DNA of 64,000 nucleotides, from NCBI GenBank assembly GCA_019661895.1, contig JAIFWO010000001.1:1181-65180 (forward strand), read 5' to 3'. Position 1 is the first letter of the stretch. Each line of letters opens with the position of its first letter. Under the pieces are notes generated by a model. It was not told where the DNA came from, searched no databases, and saw only the letters and a list, made by a program, of their open reading frames with translations. The stretch comes from Candidatus Parcubacteria bacterium. GTDB taxonomy: Bacteria > Patescibacteriota > Minisyncoccia > Phycocordibacterales > Zambryskibacteraceae. Below are positions 4,083 to 5,788 of this stretch, piece after piece. Position numbers and translations under genes: made by a program.

Positions 4083-4166
4083 AGGAGGACGAGAAAGCCG
4101 GAGCACGACGGTGCGAGGCGGGGTCGCGGAAATTTCCAGCGGGAAATTATCTGTGACCGAGTCCTC
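4083..4166 (+). ncRNA. tRNA-trailing structured RNA motif, copy A (novel family; block1-hairpin1-GAGGCGGGGTCG-hairpin2-TATCNGTGACC)
   Basis: The conserved blocks GAGCCGGAG / CGAGGCGGGGTCG / TATCTGTGACC are present. Hairpin 1 is gcac-gacg-gtgc and hairpin 2 is aatttcc-agc-gggaaatt. The outer stem pairs ggaggac with gtcctc. Confidence 0.6.
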
Positions 4167-4201
4167 TAGCACAATATATTAAATTCCTATAGTGTATCCC
4201 C

Positions 4202-5098
4202 ATGAAGCCGAAAGTATTGGTGATAGTAGGCTCGACCGCTTCGGGGAAGAGCGCTTTGGCGGTACGACTTGCTAAGAAGTTTAATGGCGAGGTGATTTCA
4301 GCTGATTCTCGCCAGGTGTATAAAGGTTTAAATGTCGGGACGGGCAAGATTACGAAGAAAGAAATGAGCGGTATTCCCCACCACCTCCTCGATGTGGCCG
4401 ATCCTAAAAAGCCATTCTCCGTCTCGGATTACAAAGAACTGACTGAGAAATCTATACGATATATCGTATATAAAGATAAACTGCCCATTATCGTCGGAGG
4501 TGCAGGATTTTACATAGATGCGATAACCGGTCGTGCTACCCTACCGGAAGTGCCGCCGAATAAGAAGCTGAGGAGAGTTTTAGAAAAGAAATCAAAAGAA
4601 GAGTTGTTTAAGATACTCAAAAAGAAAGACCCGAAGAGAGCCGAAATTATTGATAAAGATAATAAGGTAAGACTCGTACGCGCGCTTGAGATCGTAGAAG
4701 CTTTGGGAAAAGTACCTGAGATAAAAAATAATAAAATAAATAATAGGAAATATATTTTCATCGGCCTGAGGCCGGAGCAAAAAGAGCTTGAGAGGAGAAT
4801 TTATAAACGCTTAATAGAGCGCCTGCCAGGCATGATTAGGGAAGCTAAATCCTTGCGCCGGAAAGGCCTAAGCATAAAGAGAATGGAAGCGCTCGGCCTT
4901 GAGTATCGCTATCTGGCGAGATTCTTACAAAACAAGATTACCAAGGAAGAATTCGTCACCCAACTCTTCGCCGAGATTAAAAAGTATTCCAAGCGCCAAT
5001 GGGTGTGGTTTAAACGCAATAAAGAGATTGAGTGGTTTGAACCTAACGAGTTCAAAGAGATTGCGAAATATGCTAGTATCTCGCTCAAGGGCGATTAG
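4202..5098 (+). CDS. miaA: tRNA dimethylallyltransferase
   Basis: A P-loop GSTASGKS is followed by DSRQVYKGLNVGTGK and PHHLLD. The stop codon overlaps the first ~10 nt of tRNA-Trp. Confidence 0.9.
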   Translation: MKPKVLVIVGSTASGKSALAVRLAKKFNGEVISADSRQVYKGLNVGTGKITKKEMSGIPHHLLDVADPKKPFSVSDYKELTEKSIRYIVYKDKLPIIVGGAGFYIDAITGRATLPEVPPNKKLRRVLEKKSKEELFKILKKKDPKRAEIIDKDNKVRLVRALEIVEALGKVPEIKNNKINNRKYIFIGLRPEQKELERRIYKRLIERLPGMIREAKSLRRKGLSIKRMEALGLEYRYLARFLQNKITKEEFVTQLFAEIKKYSKRQWVWFKRNKEIEWFEPNEFKEIAKYASISLKGD

Positions 5099-5159
5099 TT
5101 TAGTGGTAGAACAGCGGTCTCCAAAACCGCTGGCGAGGGTTCGATTCCTTCATCGCCCG
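5089..5159 (+). tRNA. tRNA-Trp (anticodon CCA)
   Basis: The acceptor pairs gggcgat with atcgccc. The anticodon stem gcggt/accgc carries the loop ctCCAaa, and the T-arm is gaggg-ttcgatt-ccttc. No CCA is encoded. Confidence 0.85.
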
Positions 5160-5164
5160 CAATG
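5141..5164 (+). repeat. direct repeat DR-1 (tRNA-Trp 3' end, cgattccttcatcgcccgcaatg)
   Basis: The identical 23-24 nt recur at 5298-5321, bracketing a 133-nt insert that contains motif copy B. Confidence 0.8.
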
Positions 5165-5219
5165 ATCCGCAAGAATGTCTGGGAGACATTCGCGTGGAGT
5201 ACCAGCGCGTGTGCGAGAA

Positions 5220-5304
5220 GGAATCGAGAGCCGCAGTCCCGCTTCAGACGGGACGAGGCGGGGTCGAGCAAATCCCGAGCACGGGATTATGCGTGACCGA
5301 TTCC
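5220..5304 (+). ncRNA. tRNA-trailing structured RNA motif, copy B
   Basis: The conserved blocks are GAGCCGCAG ... CGAGGCGGGGTCG ... TATGCGTGACC. Hairpin 1 is gtcccg-cttcaga-cgggac and hairpin 2 is aatcccg-agca-cgggatt. The outer stem pairs ggaatcg with cgattcc. All stems differ from copy A yet remain base-paired. Confidence 0.6.
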
Positions 5305-5321
5305 TTCATCGCCCGCAATGT
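5298..5321 (+). repeat. direct repeat DR-2 (duplicate of the tRNA-Trp 3' end)
   Basis: This segment is identical to 5141-5164. Confidence 0.8.
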
Positions 5322-5350
5322 AAGAAAAAGCCCGGTTGCCCGGGGATTTC

Positions 5351-5524
5351 TTAGGCCTTCTTCTCTTTGTAAACCGTATGCTTCTTCGCGATCGGATTGT
5401 ACTTCTTGACTTCGATCTTGCCTTCGACTGACTTCTTGTTCTTGGTCGAATAATAGGTGTGGCCCTTGCCGACGCCCTTCGGGTCTCCGACGGAGACGAG
5501 CTTTATGAGGTGATCTTGTGACAT
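5351..5524 (-). CDS. rpmG: 50S ribosomal protein L33
   Basis: The 57-aa frame was hand-translated as MSQDHLIKLVSVGDPKGVGKGHTYYSTKNKKSVEGKIEVKKYNPIAKKHTVYKEKKA. A hairpin-plus-T-run terminator follows at 5322-5350. The gene is absent from the ORF track because it is under 60 aa. Confidence 0.8.
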   Translation of the reverse strand: MSQDHLIKLVSVGDPKGVGKGHTYYSTKNKKSVEGKIEVKKYNPIAKKHTVYKEKKA

Positions 5525-5591
5525 AGGTTATAAGAATACCCAATATGTCAGATTTTGCAAGTAGAGCCAAAATGCTCTAGAATGACCTCAC

Positions 5592-5677
5592 GCGTCGGTG
5601 GTAGAGTGGTCAATTACAACAGACTGTAAATCTGTCGGCTTCGGCCTACGCAGGTTCGAATCCTGCCCGGCGCACCA
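5592..5677 (+). tRNA. tRNA-Tyr (anticodon GTA), CCA encoded
   Basis: The anticodon stem acaga/tctgt carries the loop ctGTAaa. There is a long variable arm, the T-arm is gcagg-ttcgaat-cctgc, and the 3' end reads a-cca. Confidence 0.85.
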
Positions 5678-5687
5678 ATACGAAACA

Positions 5688-5709
5688 AGGTGCTTAATGC
5701 ACCTTTTTC
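5688..5709 (+). terminator. intrinsic terminator after tRNA-Tyr
   Basis: The hairpin aggtgc-ttaa-tgcacct is followed by ttttt. Confidence 0.6.
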
Positions 5710-5710
5710 G

Positions 5711-5788
5711 ATTGGTGCGAGCCGGAGCGCGACGGCGCGAGGCGGGGTCGCAGAACTTTTCAACAGAAAAGTATCCGTGACCACAAAT
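5711..5788 (+). ncRNA. tRNA-trailing structured RNA motif, copy C
   Basis: The conserved blocks are GAGCCGGAG / CGAGGCGGGGTCG / TATCCGTGACC. Hairpin 1 is gcgc-gacg-gcgc and hairpin 2 is acttttc-aaca-gaaaagt. Confidence 0.6.

What the first reader, a model, noticed from the sequence alone, without database searches (positions are those of the whole stretch)
4083..5788. Novel tRNA-trailing structured RNA family: three copies downstream of tRNA-Leu, tRNA-Trp and tRNA-Tyr with compensatory base changes
I read the sequence as a conserved motif: block 1 GAGCCG(G/C)AG, hairpin 1, CGAGGCGGGGTCG, hairpin 2, TATCNGTGACC, wrapped in an outer stem.

The three copies keep the conserved blocks almost identical while every stem changes sequence yet stays paired:
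- copy A (4083-4166): hairpin 1 gcac/gtgc, hairpin 2 aatttcc/ggaaatt, outer stem ggaggac/gtcctc.
- copy B (5220-5304): hairpin 1 gtcccg/cgggac, hairpin 2 aatcccg/cgggatt, outer stem ggaatcg/cgattcc.
- copy C (5711-5788): hairpin 1 gcgc/gcgc, hairpin 2 acttttc/gaaaagt.

That covariation pattern is the hallmark of a functional structured RNA rather than a simple repeat. Each copy sits 5-70 nt after the 3' end of a tRNA gene, and in A and C it directly follows a terminator hairpin. A fourth copy lies at 15057-15154.

I do not recognise it as any family I know. The hammerhead core CUGANGA...GAAA is absent, and it is not a tRNA fold. Possibilities are a tRNA-processing or decoy element, a small regulatory RNA, or the RNA component or att structure of a tRNA-targeting mobile element.
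Basis: seen in the sequence. Interest (0 to 1): 0.88.

Follow-up and report, generated by a model that had tools for sequence, protein, structure and literature searches.

The report
Guide-bearing mini-insertions in CPR tRNA genes
The four repeats are copies of a widespread, undescribed family of ~110-160-bp insertions in the 3' parts of tRNA and tmRNA genes of Patescibacteria (CPR bacteria), each combining a strongly covarying folded core, a short guide complementary to its own insertion site, and a replacement 3' end for the gene it interrupts.

Summary
The window holds exactly four + strand copies, each after a tRNA (Leu, Trp, Tyr, Lys). No Rfam 15 family matches them.

One pattern scan found at least 120 more copies, almost all in Patescibacteria. 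On 124 sequences, 97% of cells pair and 19 of 23 pairs show compensatory changes. One G.U pair is invariant.

- Relatives with the same gene order mostly have empty sites.
- Each unit reads [gene ...G-N-N | C...gene 3' end (U)] - spacer hairpin, often a terminator - guide - 1 nt - core ending GTGAC - [decaying second copy of the gene 3' end (D)].
- The guide is the reverse complement of positions -2 to about +7 across the junction, and it covaries with the target.
- Targets include 19 tRNA isotypes, tmRNA and the topA 3' end.

No protein gene travels with the element. A large serine recombinase found nearby in a few loci was tested and rejected (core present in 1 of 80 recombinase loci).

Best reading: a new non-autonomous, guide-directed, single-strand-structured insertion element that regenerates its target gene. 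The enzyme or catalysis, and whether the active form is RNA or ssDNA, remain unknown.

The parts
3957..4040 (+). Host gene tRNA-Leu(CAA). From C56 (4020) onward it is the element-borne replacement 3' end (U_A, 4020-4040).
   Evidence: ARAGORN and Rfam tRNA at 59.7 bits. The junction T55|C56 follows from the direct repeat that starts at 4020 and 4158.
4020..4157 (+). Element A, the whole inserted unit of 138 bp: U_A, a terminator hairpin (4041-4079), the guide GGAGGAC (4084-4090), the linker GAGAAA, and the core (4097-4157) ending GTGAC.
   Evidence: CM hit 4092-4158 at 92.1 bits. Terminator-like stem 4053-4067 followed by a T run. The orthologous site in relatives L125, L126 and L128 is empty, with tRNA-Leu followed directly by miaA.
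4158..4173 (+). D_A, the relic of the displaced original tRNA-Leu 3' end: CGAGTCCTCT, then AGCACA. About 5 nt are deleted relative to the tRNA.
   Evidence: 10-nt direct repeat of 4020-4029. Comparison with the intact tRNA end.
5089..5160 (+). Host gene tRNA-Trp(CCA).
   Evidence: ARAGORN and Rfam tRNA at 70.1 bits.
5142..5297 (+). Element B, 156 bp: U_B (5142-5164), a spacer with hairpin 5173-5191, the guide GCGA-GAAGGAATCG-A (5213-5227), and the core (5230-5297).
   Evidence: CM hit 5225-5298 at 67.4 bits. The spacer start is identical over 24 nt to a truncated copy in L129 and is homologous to the element at tRNA-Trp in L128. The site is empty in L123, L125 and L126.
5298..5320 (+). D_B, a perfect 23-nt copy of 5142-5164 (CGATTCCTTCATCGCCCGCAATG). 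The bidirectional terminator shared with rpmG (5331-5344) follows it.
   Evidence: Direct repeat. Terminator scan. rpmG identified by Pfam.
5592..5677 (+). Host gene tRNA-Tyr(GTA).
   Evidence: ARAGORN and Rfam.
5673..5781 (+). Element C, 109 bp, of the acceptor-end class. The junction is G71|C72 (5672|5673). A near-perfect palindrome/terminator spans 5673-5717, the guide ATTGGTG-CG is at 5711-5719, and the core is 5721-5781.
   Evidence: CM hit 5716-5782 at 86.9 bits. Guide match [CG|CACCAAT]. Terminator-like stem 5687-5705. The tRNA-Tyr sites in L123, L125, L126 and L129 are empty.
5782..5791 (+). D_C, a short relic CACAAATACA. It matches the tRNA end plus trailer CACCAATAC at 8 of 9 positions.
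   Evidence: Read directly from the sequence.
14942..15015 (+). Host gene tRNA-Lys(CTT).
   Evidence: ARAGORN and Rfam.
15013..15150 (+). Element D, 138 bp, acceptor-end class and long-form core. The junction is G71|C72 (15012|15013). A palindrome/terminator spans 15013-15060, the guide CTTTTGTG-CG is at 15053-15062, and the core is 15064-15150, ending GTAAC.
   Evidence: CM hit 15059-15151 at 39.9 bits, E=1.8e-7. Guide match [CG|CACAAAAG]. Terminator-like stem 15029-15046. P1 is GGC/GCC here, compensatory to GCC/GGC in copies A-C.
15151..15158 (+). D_D, a weak relic CACCGAAA. tRNA-Leu(TAG) follows at 15181.
   Evidence: Sequence. ARAGORN.

Best explanation
The four copies belong to a previously undescribed family of small (about 110-190 bp) non-autonomous insertion elements of Patescibacteria/CPR.

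Each element is built, 5' to 3', from:
1. U, a replacement copy of the target gene from position +1 (always C) to its end.
2. A spacer hairpin, often an intrinsic-terminator-like one.
3. A guide of 8-9 nt, up to 18 nt. It is the reverse complement of the target from +7 back to +1 and then of -1 and -2.
4. One linker nucleotide.
5. A conserved 62-100-nt three-way-junction core ending in GURAC.

The element sits between N(-1) and C(+1) of a site G(-3)-N-N|C. So the host gene continues into U and stays functional. The original 3' end (D) is left downstream of the core, where it decays.

Proposed mechanism (inferred, not shown):
- The + strand folds as a single strand, either RNA or ssDNA.
- The guide pairs with the target across the junction.
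- P2 holds the element's own 3' end, which has the same G-N-N|C shape (GAC|C).
- The two scissile positions are therefore brought to the same three-way junction, and strands are exchanged there.
- The catalyst would be either an unidentified trans-acting enzyme or the fold itself.

Shown: the anatomy, the covariation, the guide-target rule, the insertion polymorphism, and the absence of a linked protein gene.

Inferred: that the guide selects the target, that the element supplies U, and the strand-exchange step.
For: Family and structure:
- At least 120 further copies were found in GTDB species genomes, nearly all Patescibacteria.
- On 124 CM hits, 97.2% of cells pair and 19 of 23 pairs have changes on both sides. 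No shuffle out of 500 reached the observed values, and slid controls pair at only 35-49%.
- The G.U pair is invariant in 120 of 120 sequences, and a neighbouring pair is GC 62 / GU 42. This fixes the + strand.

Insertion:
- 27 loci from relatives with the same synteny (tRNA-Leu - miaA - tRNA-Trp - rpmG - tRNA-Tyr) contain one copy in total, against three in the window.

Junction and guide rule:
- In 53 of 82 t(m)RNA-adjacent copies the guide matches at least 6 nt of the upstream gene.
- The match starts 2 nt 5' of a C in 52 of 53 copies, and G is at -3 in 53 of 53.
- The left dinucleotide varies (TT, CG, TG, CA, GT, GA, AG) and the guide covaries with it.

Two sublocations in tRNAs (55|56 and the acceptor end), plus tmRNA, topA and a site at the 3' end of a protein gene and its terminator (L058), all use the same core.

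U is supplied by the element and D is the original:
- D_B abuts the host's rpmG terminator.
- U_B abuts a spacer that is identical over 24 nt in L129, although the two MiaA proteins are about 70% identical.
- In topA, U and D both encode complete C-termini and differ mostly at synonymous sites.
- D is less conserved than the guide: mismatch at +4..+8 is 0.34 against 0.18. D_A carries a deletion.

Guide-D pairs include 36 G.T wobbles among 392 pairs, in both orientations.

No linked protein:
- ORF clustering over 120 loci found no enriched family.
- There are 0 copies in 2.9 M viral contigs.
- BLAST found no hit in the phage or plasmid collections.
Against: - No enzyme, circular form, transcript or excision product has been seen, so mobility is inferred from presence/absence among relatives at about 70% protein identity, not from isogenic strains.
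- Within-genome copies are not near-identical (A and C differ at 11 of 67 core positions), so there is no sign of recent bursts. Orthologous copies persist across species (L033/L042, L010/L054). That also fits a host-retained function.
- How a lineage acquires a new guide together with a new U for a new target is unexplained.
- Direct repeats sometimes run past the gene end into non-conserved trailer (23 nt in B, 32 nt in L105, 41-51 nt in L058). That looks more like local duplication than an imported U.
- 29 of 82 adjacent copies gave no guide match of at least 6 nt. These are the GAGAAAG-linker subtype and decayed copies.
- RNA and ssDNA cannot be told apart from these data.
Confidence: 0.5

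Rival explanations
1. Host-serving small RNA. The core plus guide is a stable structured RNA, co-transcribed with tRNA or tmRNA and released by RNase P/Z. Its 5' arm pairs with the 3' half of the adjacent pre-tRNA to control its folding, processing or quality control, or to act as a decoy. The duplicated tRNA pieces would be by-products of how the gene arose.
For: - The element is always on the same strand as the host gene and downstream of it.
- Many copies lie inside tRNA operons, 17-60 nt upstream of the next tRNA. Window copy D lies between tRNA-Lys and tRNA-Leu.
- 47 of 82 copies have no terminator-like hairpin between the gene and the core.
- There is strong purifying selection on the fold, with G.U pairs.
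- The guide is kept complementary to U while D decays.
- Orthologous copies are retained across species (L033/L042).
Against: - 35 of 82 copies, including window A, C and D, sit directly behind a terminator-like hairpin.
- Distribution is patchy: only 4 of the 13 tRNAs in the window carry a copy, and close relatives have empty sites.
- The same core is found inside topA and at the 3' end of a protein gene and its terminator (L058), where no tRNA is involved.
- Tandem arrays and truncated copies look like mobile-element debris.
Confidence: 0.2
2. Self-catalytic RNA: an intron-like or self-cleaving/ligating ribozyme. The guide and the 5' strand of P2 act as two substrate-binding arms flanking a small catalytic core (P1 with its GSAG/CGA internal loop, and the GG joiner). 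Cleavage or transesterification at G-N-N|C would remove U...GTGAC and join the gene to D. The excised piece, possibly a circle, could reinsert at sites matching the guide.
For: - The topology is that of a two-arm ribozyme around a three-way junction. The invariant nucleotides lie in joining regions and internal loops, while the stems covary.
- Both junctions share G-N-N|C and map to the same junction of the fold.
- There is a conserved bulged A 9 nt before the 3' boundary.
- In topA the D copy keeps an intact reading frame in two species.
- No protein is linked to the element.
- L129 has a deletion that ends exactly at GTGAC|C.
Against: - There is no biochemical evidence.
- A 62-nt core would be far smaller than any known self-splicing intron.
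- D is often too decayed to give a functional product.
- Terminators lie upstream of the core in 43% of copies.
- Fixing an RNA event in DNA needs a reverse transcriptase, and a survey reports no group II introns in Patescibacteria (PMC13011429).
- No known ribozyme family matches.
Confidence: 0.13
3. Remnant att-proximal ends of integrase-mobilised islands (CIME-like). The units would be deletion derivatives of islands that integrate into tRNA/tmRNA genes by a tyrosine or large serine recombinase. The core would be the recombinase's P-arm site or an island-encoded regulatory RNA.
For: - Direct repeats of the tRNA 3' end and regeneration of the gene are the hallmark of integrase-type islands. 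The target range (tRNA T-loop, tmRNA, 3' ends of protein genes) is the classical one.
- In L116, L005, L045 and L056, islands of 3-5 kb with a large serine recombinase gene or fragment lie between the tRNA and core+D.
Against: - Only 1 of 80 loci (711 kb) that encode this recombinase family contains the core.
- In L116 the recombinase island has its own pseudo-att site just upstream of the mini element.
- The window has no recombinase homologue.
- No integrase is enriched near 120 copies, and there are no copies in viral contigs.
- Protein half-sites cannot explain compensatory changes in three helices, or a guide that covaries with unrelated targets.
Confidence: 0.1
4. IS200/IS605-type single-strand DNA element (PATE-like), moved in trans by a Y1/HUH transposase. 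Hairpins would be bound by the enzyme and cleavage sites chosen by base pairing with guide nucleotides next to the hairpin foot. This is a specific form of the best explanation, not a separate phenomenon.
For: - The structure is strand-specific and tolerates G.T pairs.
- There are no terminal inverted repeats.
- Insertion is 3' of a short motif that is read by complementary nucleotides beside the fold.
- The element's own 3' end has the same G-N-N| shape.
- Terminator-like hairpins upstream argue that transcription of the core is not required.
Against: - No TnpA/TnpB gene was seen in the window or enriched in 120 loci.
- Known IS200/IS605 guides are 4-5 nt and fixed per family, whereas here they are 8-18 nt and target-specific.
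- Known members do not carry a replacement gene end.
- The family's defining transposase could not be searched for genome-wide with these tools.
Confidence: 0.15

Closest known systems
Integrase-type genomic islands in tRNA/tmRNA genes, and their cis-mobilisable miniature derivatives (CIMEs)
   Same: They insert into the 3' part of tRNA and tmRNA genes, including the T-loop sublocation. The inserted DNA regenerates the gene's 3' end. A direct repeat of that end is left at the far side.
   Different: - The unit is only 110-190 bp and has no integrase.
- The one recombinase family found nearby does not co-occur with it (1 of 80 loci).
- The junction-proximal part is a covarying three-helix fold plus a target-complementary guide, not a set of protein-binding arms.
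IS200/IS605 family and its non-autonomous PATEs
   Same: Strand-specific hairpin structures are present, and there are no inverted terminal repeats. Insertion is 3' of a short sequence that is recognised by base pairing with nucleotides next to a hairpin. The element's right end has a related cleavage motif.
   Different: - The guide is 8-18 nt, spans the junction and differs for every target.
- The element carries a copy of the target's downstream part.
- No Y1 transposase or TnpB is associated, and there is no sequence similarity.
[quoted passage not shown]
   Same: A guide inside the element pairs with host sequence on both sides of the insertion point. The targets are tRNA genes. Stems covary around conserved joining nucleotides. 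There is a bulged A near the 3' boundary.
   Different: - The core is 62-100 nt, against more than 200 nt (group I) or more than 400 nt (group II).
- Rfam intron models do not match.
- The apparent 5' GUGCG is part of the guide and covaries with the tRNA acceptor end.
- The host gene is already complete without any splicing.
- There is no reverse transcriptase or homing endonuclease.
IS110/IS1111 bridge (seek) RNAs
   Same: A structured non-coding segment of a mobile element contains stretches complementary to its target site, so specificity is encoded in nucleic acid.
   Different: - Bridge RNAs are 150-250 nt with two internal guide loops.
- They lie next to a DEDD recombinase gene inside a 1.2-1.5-kb IS.
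- They leave only a 2-nt core repeat.
- Here there is no ORF, a single contiguous guide and a long gene-end repeat.
RtT RNA / tyrT 3' repeats of E. coli
   Same: A structured RNA region downstream of a tRNA gene is associated with repeated copies of the tRNA's 3'-terminal sequence.
   Different: - It is specific to one operon in enterobacteria.
- It has no conserved junction rule and no guide.
- It does not spread across isotypes or phyla.
- The Rfam model does not match.

Membership tests
Any Rfam 15 family | Score at or above a family's gathering threshold, or at least a credible sub-threshold match | tested here: not met
   Only tRNA (and, in other loci, tmRNA) reach threshold. At E<=10, nothing credible overlaps the cores: the one overlapping row is a - strand STnc50 match over copy C (20 bits against a gathering score of 55, E=3.3).
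Hammerhead ribozyme | Three-way junction with the core CUGANGA ... GAAA ... UH | tested here: not met
   A three-way junction is present, but the joiners are only 3, 2 and 0 nt, and CUGANGA is absent. No Rfam hammerhead hit.
tRNA / tRNA-like structure | Cloverleaf detected by ARAGORN or the Rfam tRNA model | tested here: not met
   ARAGORN and RF00005 call only the 13 genuine tRNAs. The cores are not called. Only the flanks (U and D) are tRNA-derived.
Group II intron | 5' GUGYG, domain V with the AGC triad and a 2-nt bulge, domain VI with a branch A, usually an RT ORF | tested here: not met
   GTGCG upstream of B, C and D is the complement of the tRNA acceptor end (CGCAC), and it changes with the target. 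The GAGCCG position covaries as a base pair (CG 65 / GC 50). There is no RT ORF and no Rfam hit.
Group I intron | P1-P9 core, guanosine-binding P7, at least about 200 nt, Rfam Intron_gpI match | tested here: not met
   No Rfam hit. The core is 62-100 nt. Only the guide logic resembles an IGS.
Integrase-mobilised tRNA island / CIME | Direct repeats of the tRNA 3' end flanking the insert | tested here: met
   Repeats of 10-32 nt start at C56 or at the acceptor end.
Integrase-mobilised tRNA island / CIME | A cognate integrase/recombinase gene in autonomous relatives that share the same ends | tested here: not met
   A large serine recombinase is present in 7 of 120 loci, but the core is present in only 1 of 80 recombinase loci. 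No other family is enriched.
IS200/IS605 PATE | Subterminal hairpins, no TIR and no TSD, insertion 3' of a fixed 4-5-nt target | tested here: inconclusive
   Hairpins are present, there are no TIRs, and the G-N-N| rule holds. However, the target is read by a long variable guide, and the element starts with a copy of the target.
IS200/IS605 PATE | Y1 (HUH) transposase of the same family encoded in the genome | not testable with these tools
   Only 64 kb of the source genome and 8-kb loci are available. None was noticed.
IS110 bridge RNA | Encoded at the end of an IS carrying a DEDD/Transposase_20 recombinase | tested here: not met
   There is no ORF inside the 110-190-bp units.
REP/BIME (RAYT-associated) | A palindrome of about 35 nt with a conserved 5' GTAG tetranucleotide, extragenic | tested here: not met
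   The sequence and architecture are different. The units interrupt genes.
MITE | Conserved terminal inverted repeats plus a fixed-length target-site duplication | tested here: not met
   The inverted segment (the guide) differs for each target, and the repeat length varies from 9 to more than 45 nt.
Retron msr/msd | Flanking a1/a2 repeats with an adjacent reverse transcriptase gene | tested here: not met
   There is no RT next to any copy.

The most novel reading that the evidence does not exclude
The core is a new small catalytic RNA, or a protein-independent strand-exchange module. In this reading it is a three-way-junction ribozyme of about 62 nt with a built-in, naturally reprogrammed guide. 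It cleaves and ligates at G-N-N|C, excises itself from tRNA, tmRNA and mRNA transcripts (possibly as a circle), and homes to matching sites. That would make it the smallest self-splicing or self-mobile element known, and a natural guide-programmable one.
Probability: 0.12. Interest if true: 0.97.

Novelty: categorically new. Interest (0 to 1): 0.86.

Why it matters
If the main reading holds, CPR bacteria have some of the smallest genomes known. Yet they carry a widespread class of tiny insertion elements that choose essential genes (tRNA, tmRNA, topA) by nucleic-acid complementarity. The elements avoid harm by bringing a spare 3' end and often a terminator.

That combines features so far seen only separately, in integrative islands, in IS200/IS605 and IS110 elements, and in self-splicing introns. 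It also does so without any linked protein gene.

Three consequences follow:
- It gives a new structured nucleic-acid family to add to Rfam-type resources.
- It explains odd tRNA 3' duplications in CPR assemblies.
- It defines a compact, naturally retargeted guide-plus-scaffold module whose partner enzyme, or own catalysis, is worth finding. The family is common in Saccharibacteria, some of which can be cultured, so the question can be tested directly.

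Tried and rejected
1. Known RNA family. Rfam 15 was searched at the gathering threshold on the window and on 18 other loci, and at E<=10 on 3900-5900. Nothing credible overlaps the cores: the only overlapping row is a weak - strand STnc50 match over copy C (20 bits, gathering 55, E=3.3).

2. Group II intron. This was prompted by GTGCG 5' of copies B-D, a domain-V-like GAGCCG, and the position after terminators. It was rejected because GTGCG is the complement of the tRNA acceptor end and covaries with the target, and because the GAGCCG position is a covarying base pair.

3. A fifth copy at 1890-1902 on the - strand (one mismatch to block 2). It lies inside topA and the CM does not detect it.

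4. A linked protein. BLAST clustering of 1558 ORFs from 120 loci gave only housekeeping families, each in at most 8 loci.

5. Large serine recombinase as the mobilising enzyme. This looked promising: it was on the opposite strand and abutting a tRNA in 7 of 7 loci, and islands in L116, L005, L045 and L056 end in core+D. It was rejected after a metagenome scan for the recombinase, in which 80 loci yielded the core in only one. There is also no homologue in the window.

6. Phage or plasmid origin. There were 0 pattern hits in IMG/VR; an earlier three-block pattern gave 2 chance hits in GC-rich coding DNA. BLAST found nothing in the phage or plasmid collections.

7. Population polymorphism in two MiaA clusters (20 contigs). 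There were no copies at all, so no isogenic filled/empty pair was obtained.

8. Exact-protein look-up of the window's MiaA. It is not on record.

9. DGR (TR/VR) reading of the topA duplication. It was rejected because the differences are not adenine-specific.

10. Literature. Four full-text searches found only work on anticodon-loop group I introns in Patescibacteria (PMC13011429), and nothing on this element.

Full report
**What is in the window**

- ARAGORN and Rfam place tRNA-Leu(CAA) at 3957-4040, tRNA-Trp at 5089-5160, tRNA-Tyr at 5592-5677 and tRNA-Lys at 14942-15015.
- The four repeats start 34-60 nt after these genes, all on the + strand.
- Pfam gives the context: topA, parB (-), tRNA-Leu, copy A, miaA, tRNA-Trp, copy B, rpmG (-), tRNA-Tyr, copy C. 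Further on: infB, a tRNA cluster, copy D, tRNA-Leu.
- The best MiaA match is a Candidatus Parcubacteria MAG.

**Is it more than chance, and is it known?**

- The 13-mer CGAGGCGGGGTCG occurs exactly three times, plus once with one mismatch at copy D.
- No Rfam 15 family matches the copies credibly, at gathering thresholds or at E<=10, in the window or in 18 other loci; the only overlapping row is a weak - strand STnc50 match over copy C (E=3.3).
- One scan of 185,579 species genomes used CGAGSCGGGGTCG, a gap of 15-45 nt, then TATNNGTRACC. Nearly all are Patescibacteria (Saccharibacteria, Paceibacterota, Kaiser-, Adler-, Nomura-, Taylor- and Moraniibacteria), plus a few bins labelled Elusimicrobia.
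- The same pattern has no match in 2.9 million viral contigs. BLAST finds nothing in the phage or plasmid collections.

**Structure**

I aligned 22 equal-length members without gaps and wrote the structure by hand. It consists of P1 (3 bp, GSC/GSC), hairpin 1, and a 16-bp P2 with a bulged A.
- A covariance model from this alignment finds exactly four copies in the window, at 92, 87, 67 and 28-40 bits.
- It finds 124 copies in 100 sources, often several per 8-kb locus.
- On those 124 sequences, 97.2% of cells form standard pairs and 19 of 23 pairs show changes on both sides.
- No shuffle out of 500 reaches the observed values, and sliding the partners by 1-3 columns drops pairing to 35-49%.
- The middle pair of P1 is CG in 65 sequences and GC in 50. 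Window copy D carries the GC version.
- One G.U pair is invariant (120 of 120), and a nearby pair is GC 62 / GU 42. So the folded strand is the + strand.
- Invariant nucleotides sit in the joiners and the internal loop (G.CGSAG ... CGAG.CGG GGUCG ... UAU..GUGACC).
- There are two subtypes. In the short form, hairpin 1 ends in GC-GACG-GC flanked by GA/GA, and hairpin 2 has an AGCA loop. In the long form, the GA-GC-GACG-GC-GA module sits on top of hairpin 2, and hairpin 1 is long with an AGCA loop.

The alignment was fitted to the model, which inflates pairing somewhat. However, the gapless hand alignment gives the same picture.

**The flanks are the real story**

- Copy B is bracketed by a perfect 23-nt direct repeat, CGATTCCTTCATCGCCCGCAATG. 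It runs from C56 of tRNA-Trp to 5 nt past the gene.
- Copy A is followed by CGAGTCCTCT, which is C56-U65 of tRNA-Leu.
- Across the family, the repeat starts at C56 of the T-loop in one class, or at the acceptor end (G71|C72, or just after A73) in a second class. Window copies C and D belong to the second class.

**The guide rule**

- In 53 of 82 copies that follow a tRNA or tmRNA, the nucleotides just 5' of a single linker base are the reverse complement of at least 6 nt of the upstream gene.
- That match begins two nucleotides 5' of a C in 52 of 53 cases.
- Position -3 is G in all 53.
- The two junction-spanning nucleotides covary with the target: TT with AA, TG with CA, CG with CG, GT with AC, GA with TC, AG with CT, CA with TG.
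- The element's own 3' end, GURAC followed by C, has the same G-N-N|C form.
- The guide stays complementary to the upstream, functional copy (U) better than D stays identical to it. Mismatch over +4..+8 is 0.18 against 0.34.
- Where guide and D still pair, 36 of 392 pairs are G.T wobbles, in both orientations.
- In the second class and in the tmRNA cases, the whole stretch from +1 through the trailer is mirrored downstream. This forms a long near-perfect palindrome with a terminator-like apex (29 bp perfect in L090).

**These are insertions**

- Relatives at about 70% MiaA identity keep the order parB, tRNA-Leu, miaA, tRNA-Trp, rpmG, tRNA-Tyr.
- In them, tRNA-Leu runs straight into miaA, and tRNA-Trp is followed within a few nucleotides by the end of rpmG.
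- The model finds one copy in 27 such loci, at tRNA-Trp in L128. The window has three.
- L128's element shares the spacer start (ATGATCC..AAGAA) with window B. Its guide and D fit its own, different T-arm, using two G.U pairs.
- L129 has tRNA-Trp, then 24 nt identical to B's spacer, then D. This is a truncated copy whose deletion ends exactly at GTGAC|C.

**Which repeat is the original?**

- D_B abuts the terminator shared with rpmG, while U_B abuts element-specific spacer.
- D_A has lost about 5 nt.
- Many D copies after tmRNA genes are badly decayed.
- In topA (L010, L054) the element sits at GGGA|CAAAAAC. U and D each encode a complete C-terminus with a stop codon. They differ mainly at synonymous sites: 6 synonymous against 4-5 non-synonymous changes in L010, and 8 against 2 in L054.
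- That pattern is what two alleles that diverged while functional would show.
- I therefore take U, the spacer, the guide and the core as the inserted unit, and D as the displaced host end. This step is an inference.
- Cases where the repeat runs well into non-conserved trailer (L058, L105) fit a local duplication better, and remain unexplained.

**Targets and partners**

- Targets include 19 tRNA isotypes, tmRNA (confirmed by Rfam in L016, L043 and L090), topA, and a site at the 3' end of a protein gene and its terminator in L058.
- Tandem arrays occur in L029, L035, L086, L103 and L118.
- Clustering all ORFs of 120 aa or more from the 120 loci found no family in more than 8 loci, and those were housekeeping genes.

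**The serine recombinase lead, and why it was dropped**

- The one suggestive family was a large serine recombinase (Resolvase + Recombinase + Zn_ribbon_recom).
- In 7 of 7 loci it lies on the opposite strand, with its 3' end overlapping a tRNA.
- In L116, L005, L045 and L056 an island carrying it lies between the tRNA and core+D.
- I tested this with the single metagenome scan. 80 loci (711 kb) encode relatives at 51-79% identity, and the core is present in only one.
- In L116 the island has its own pseudo-att site just before the mini element.
- The window has no homologue.
- These recombinase islands are therefore independent tRNA-seeking elements that sometimes land next to the mini elements.

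**RNA or DNA?**

- The fold is strand-specific and tolerates G.U/G.T pairs. The units are always co-oriented with the host gene, and many sit inside tRNA operons. All of this fits an RNA.
- On the other hand, 35 of 82 copies, including window A, C and D, lie directly behind an intrinsic-terminator-like hairpin. This fits a structure that acts in single-stranded DNA, with the terminator as part of the 'do no harm' package.
- The data do not decide between the two.

**Most likely mechanism**

- In a folded + strand, the guide pairs with the target from -2 to about +7.
- P2 holds the element's 3' end.
- Both G-N-N|C junctions then meet at the three-way junction, which is the geometry needed to exchange strands for insertion or excision.
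- This works like guide-assisted site choice in IS200/IS605 elements, and like the internal guide of self-splicing introns, combined with the gene-end regeneration of integrative islands.
- It fails the membership tests for all of those families.
- I put about 0.5 on a guide-directed, non-autonomous insertion element. Within that, a trans-acting single-strand transposase is somewhat more likely than self-catalysis.
- I put about 0.2 on a host-serving processed RNA, about 0.13 on a self-cleaving or self-splicing RNA, and about 0.1 on integrase-island remnants.

**Verdict**

The family is, as far as Rfam 15, four full-text literature searches and the phage and plasmid collections show, undescribed. 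No existing class fits its combination of features.

Noticed in passing
window 4153-4180: The element's conserved 3' block GTGACC, followed 16 nt later by TATATT, scores as a sigma-70-like promoter pointing into miaA. The insertion may therefore supply an outward promoter for the downstream gene.
   Followed up: no
L128:5250-5440 (- strand): A different structured insert of about 150 nt lies after tRNA-Tyr. It is bracketed by a repeat of AATCCTTCCCGGCGCAC, has a T-arm-complementary segment, and contains a GGGGTCGGGAGAGG...CCTCTCCCGTGG hairpin. It may be a distant relative or a second family of tRNA 3'-end insertions. The covariance model does not detect it.
   Followed up: partly
L116:3190-5938: The serine-recombinase island contains two pairs of inverted repeats of at least 100 nt, 98% complementary: 3190-3289 with 4691-4790, and 4784-4883 with 5839-5938. 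The first pair flanks the recombinase gene. This could be an invertible segment or an assembly of two orientations.
   Followed up: no
L062, L085, L111, L116, L120: The large serine recombinase genes end inside the antisense strand of a tRNA 3' end, so their last codons are encoded by the complement of the tRNA acceptor and T-stem. A recurrent pseudo-att sequence GGTTC(G/C)AAC..TTCG..CCAG is seen at island ends (also in L045, L052, L122 and L125).
   Followed up: partly
L035, L045, L056 (3' flank of the core): This is a variant in which D carries a small extra hairpin (GTGTACTCAC or GGTGTAATCACC), inserted 4-5 nt after the junction and before the rest of the tRNA 3' sequence.
   Followed up: no
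spacer region of many loci (e.g. L074, L076, L077, L092, L115, L118; window 15029-15046): There is a recurrent extra hairpin upstream of the guide, with a conserved apex ..CAAA-CUGC-UUUG.. (a CUGC loop). It may be a fourth structural module of the element.
   Followed up: no
L078, L112 (high-GC, no tRNA nearby): These copies are preceded by a GGCC-GCAA-GGCC hairpin that overlaps block 1, and they have no recognisable tRNA-derived flank. L112 lies next to a long GC-rich region that looks structured and has no Rfam match.
   Followed up: no
window 14640-15262: This is a tight cluster of five tRNA genes (Cys, Leu, Gly, Lys, Leu). Leu and Gly abut with no spacer at 14820/14821. In other species (L034, L103) the Cys-Leu spacer of the equivalent cluster is occupied by one or two elements, whereas in the window it is empty.
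   Followed up: partly
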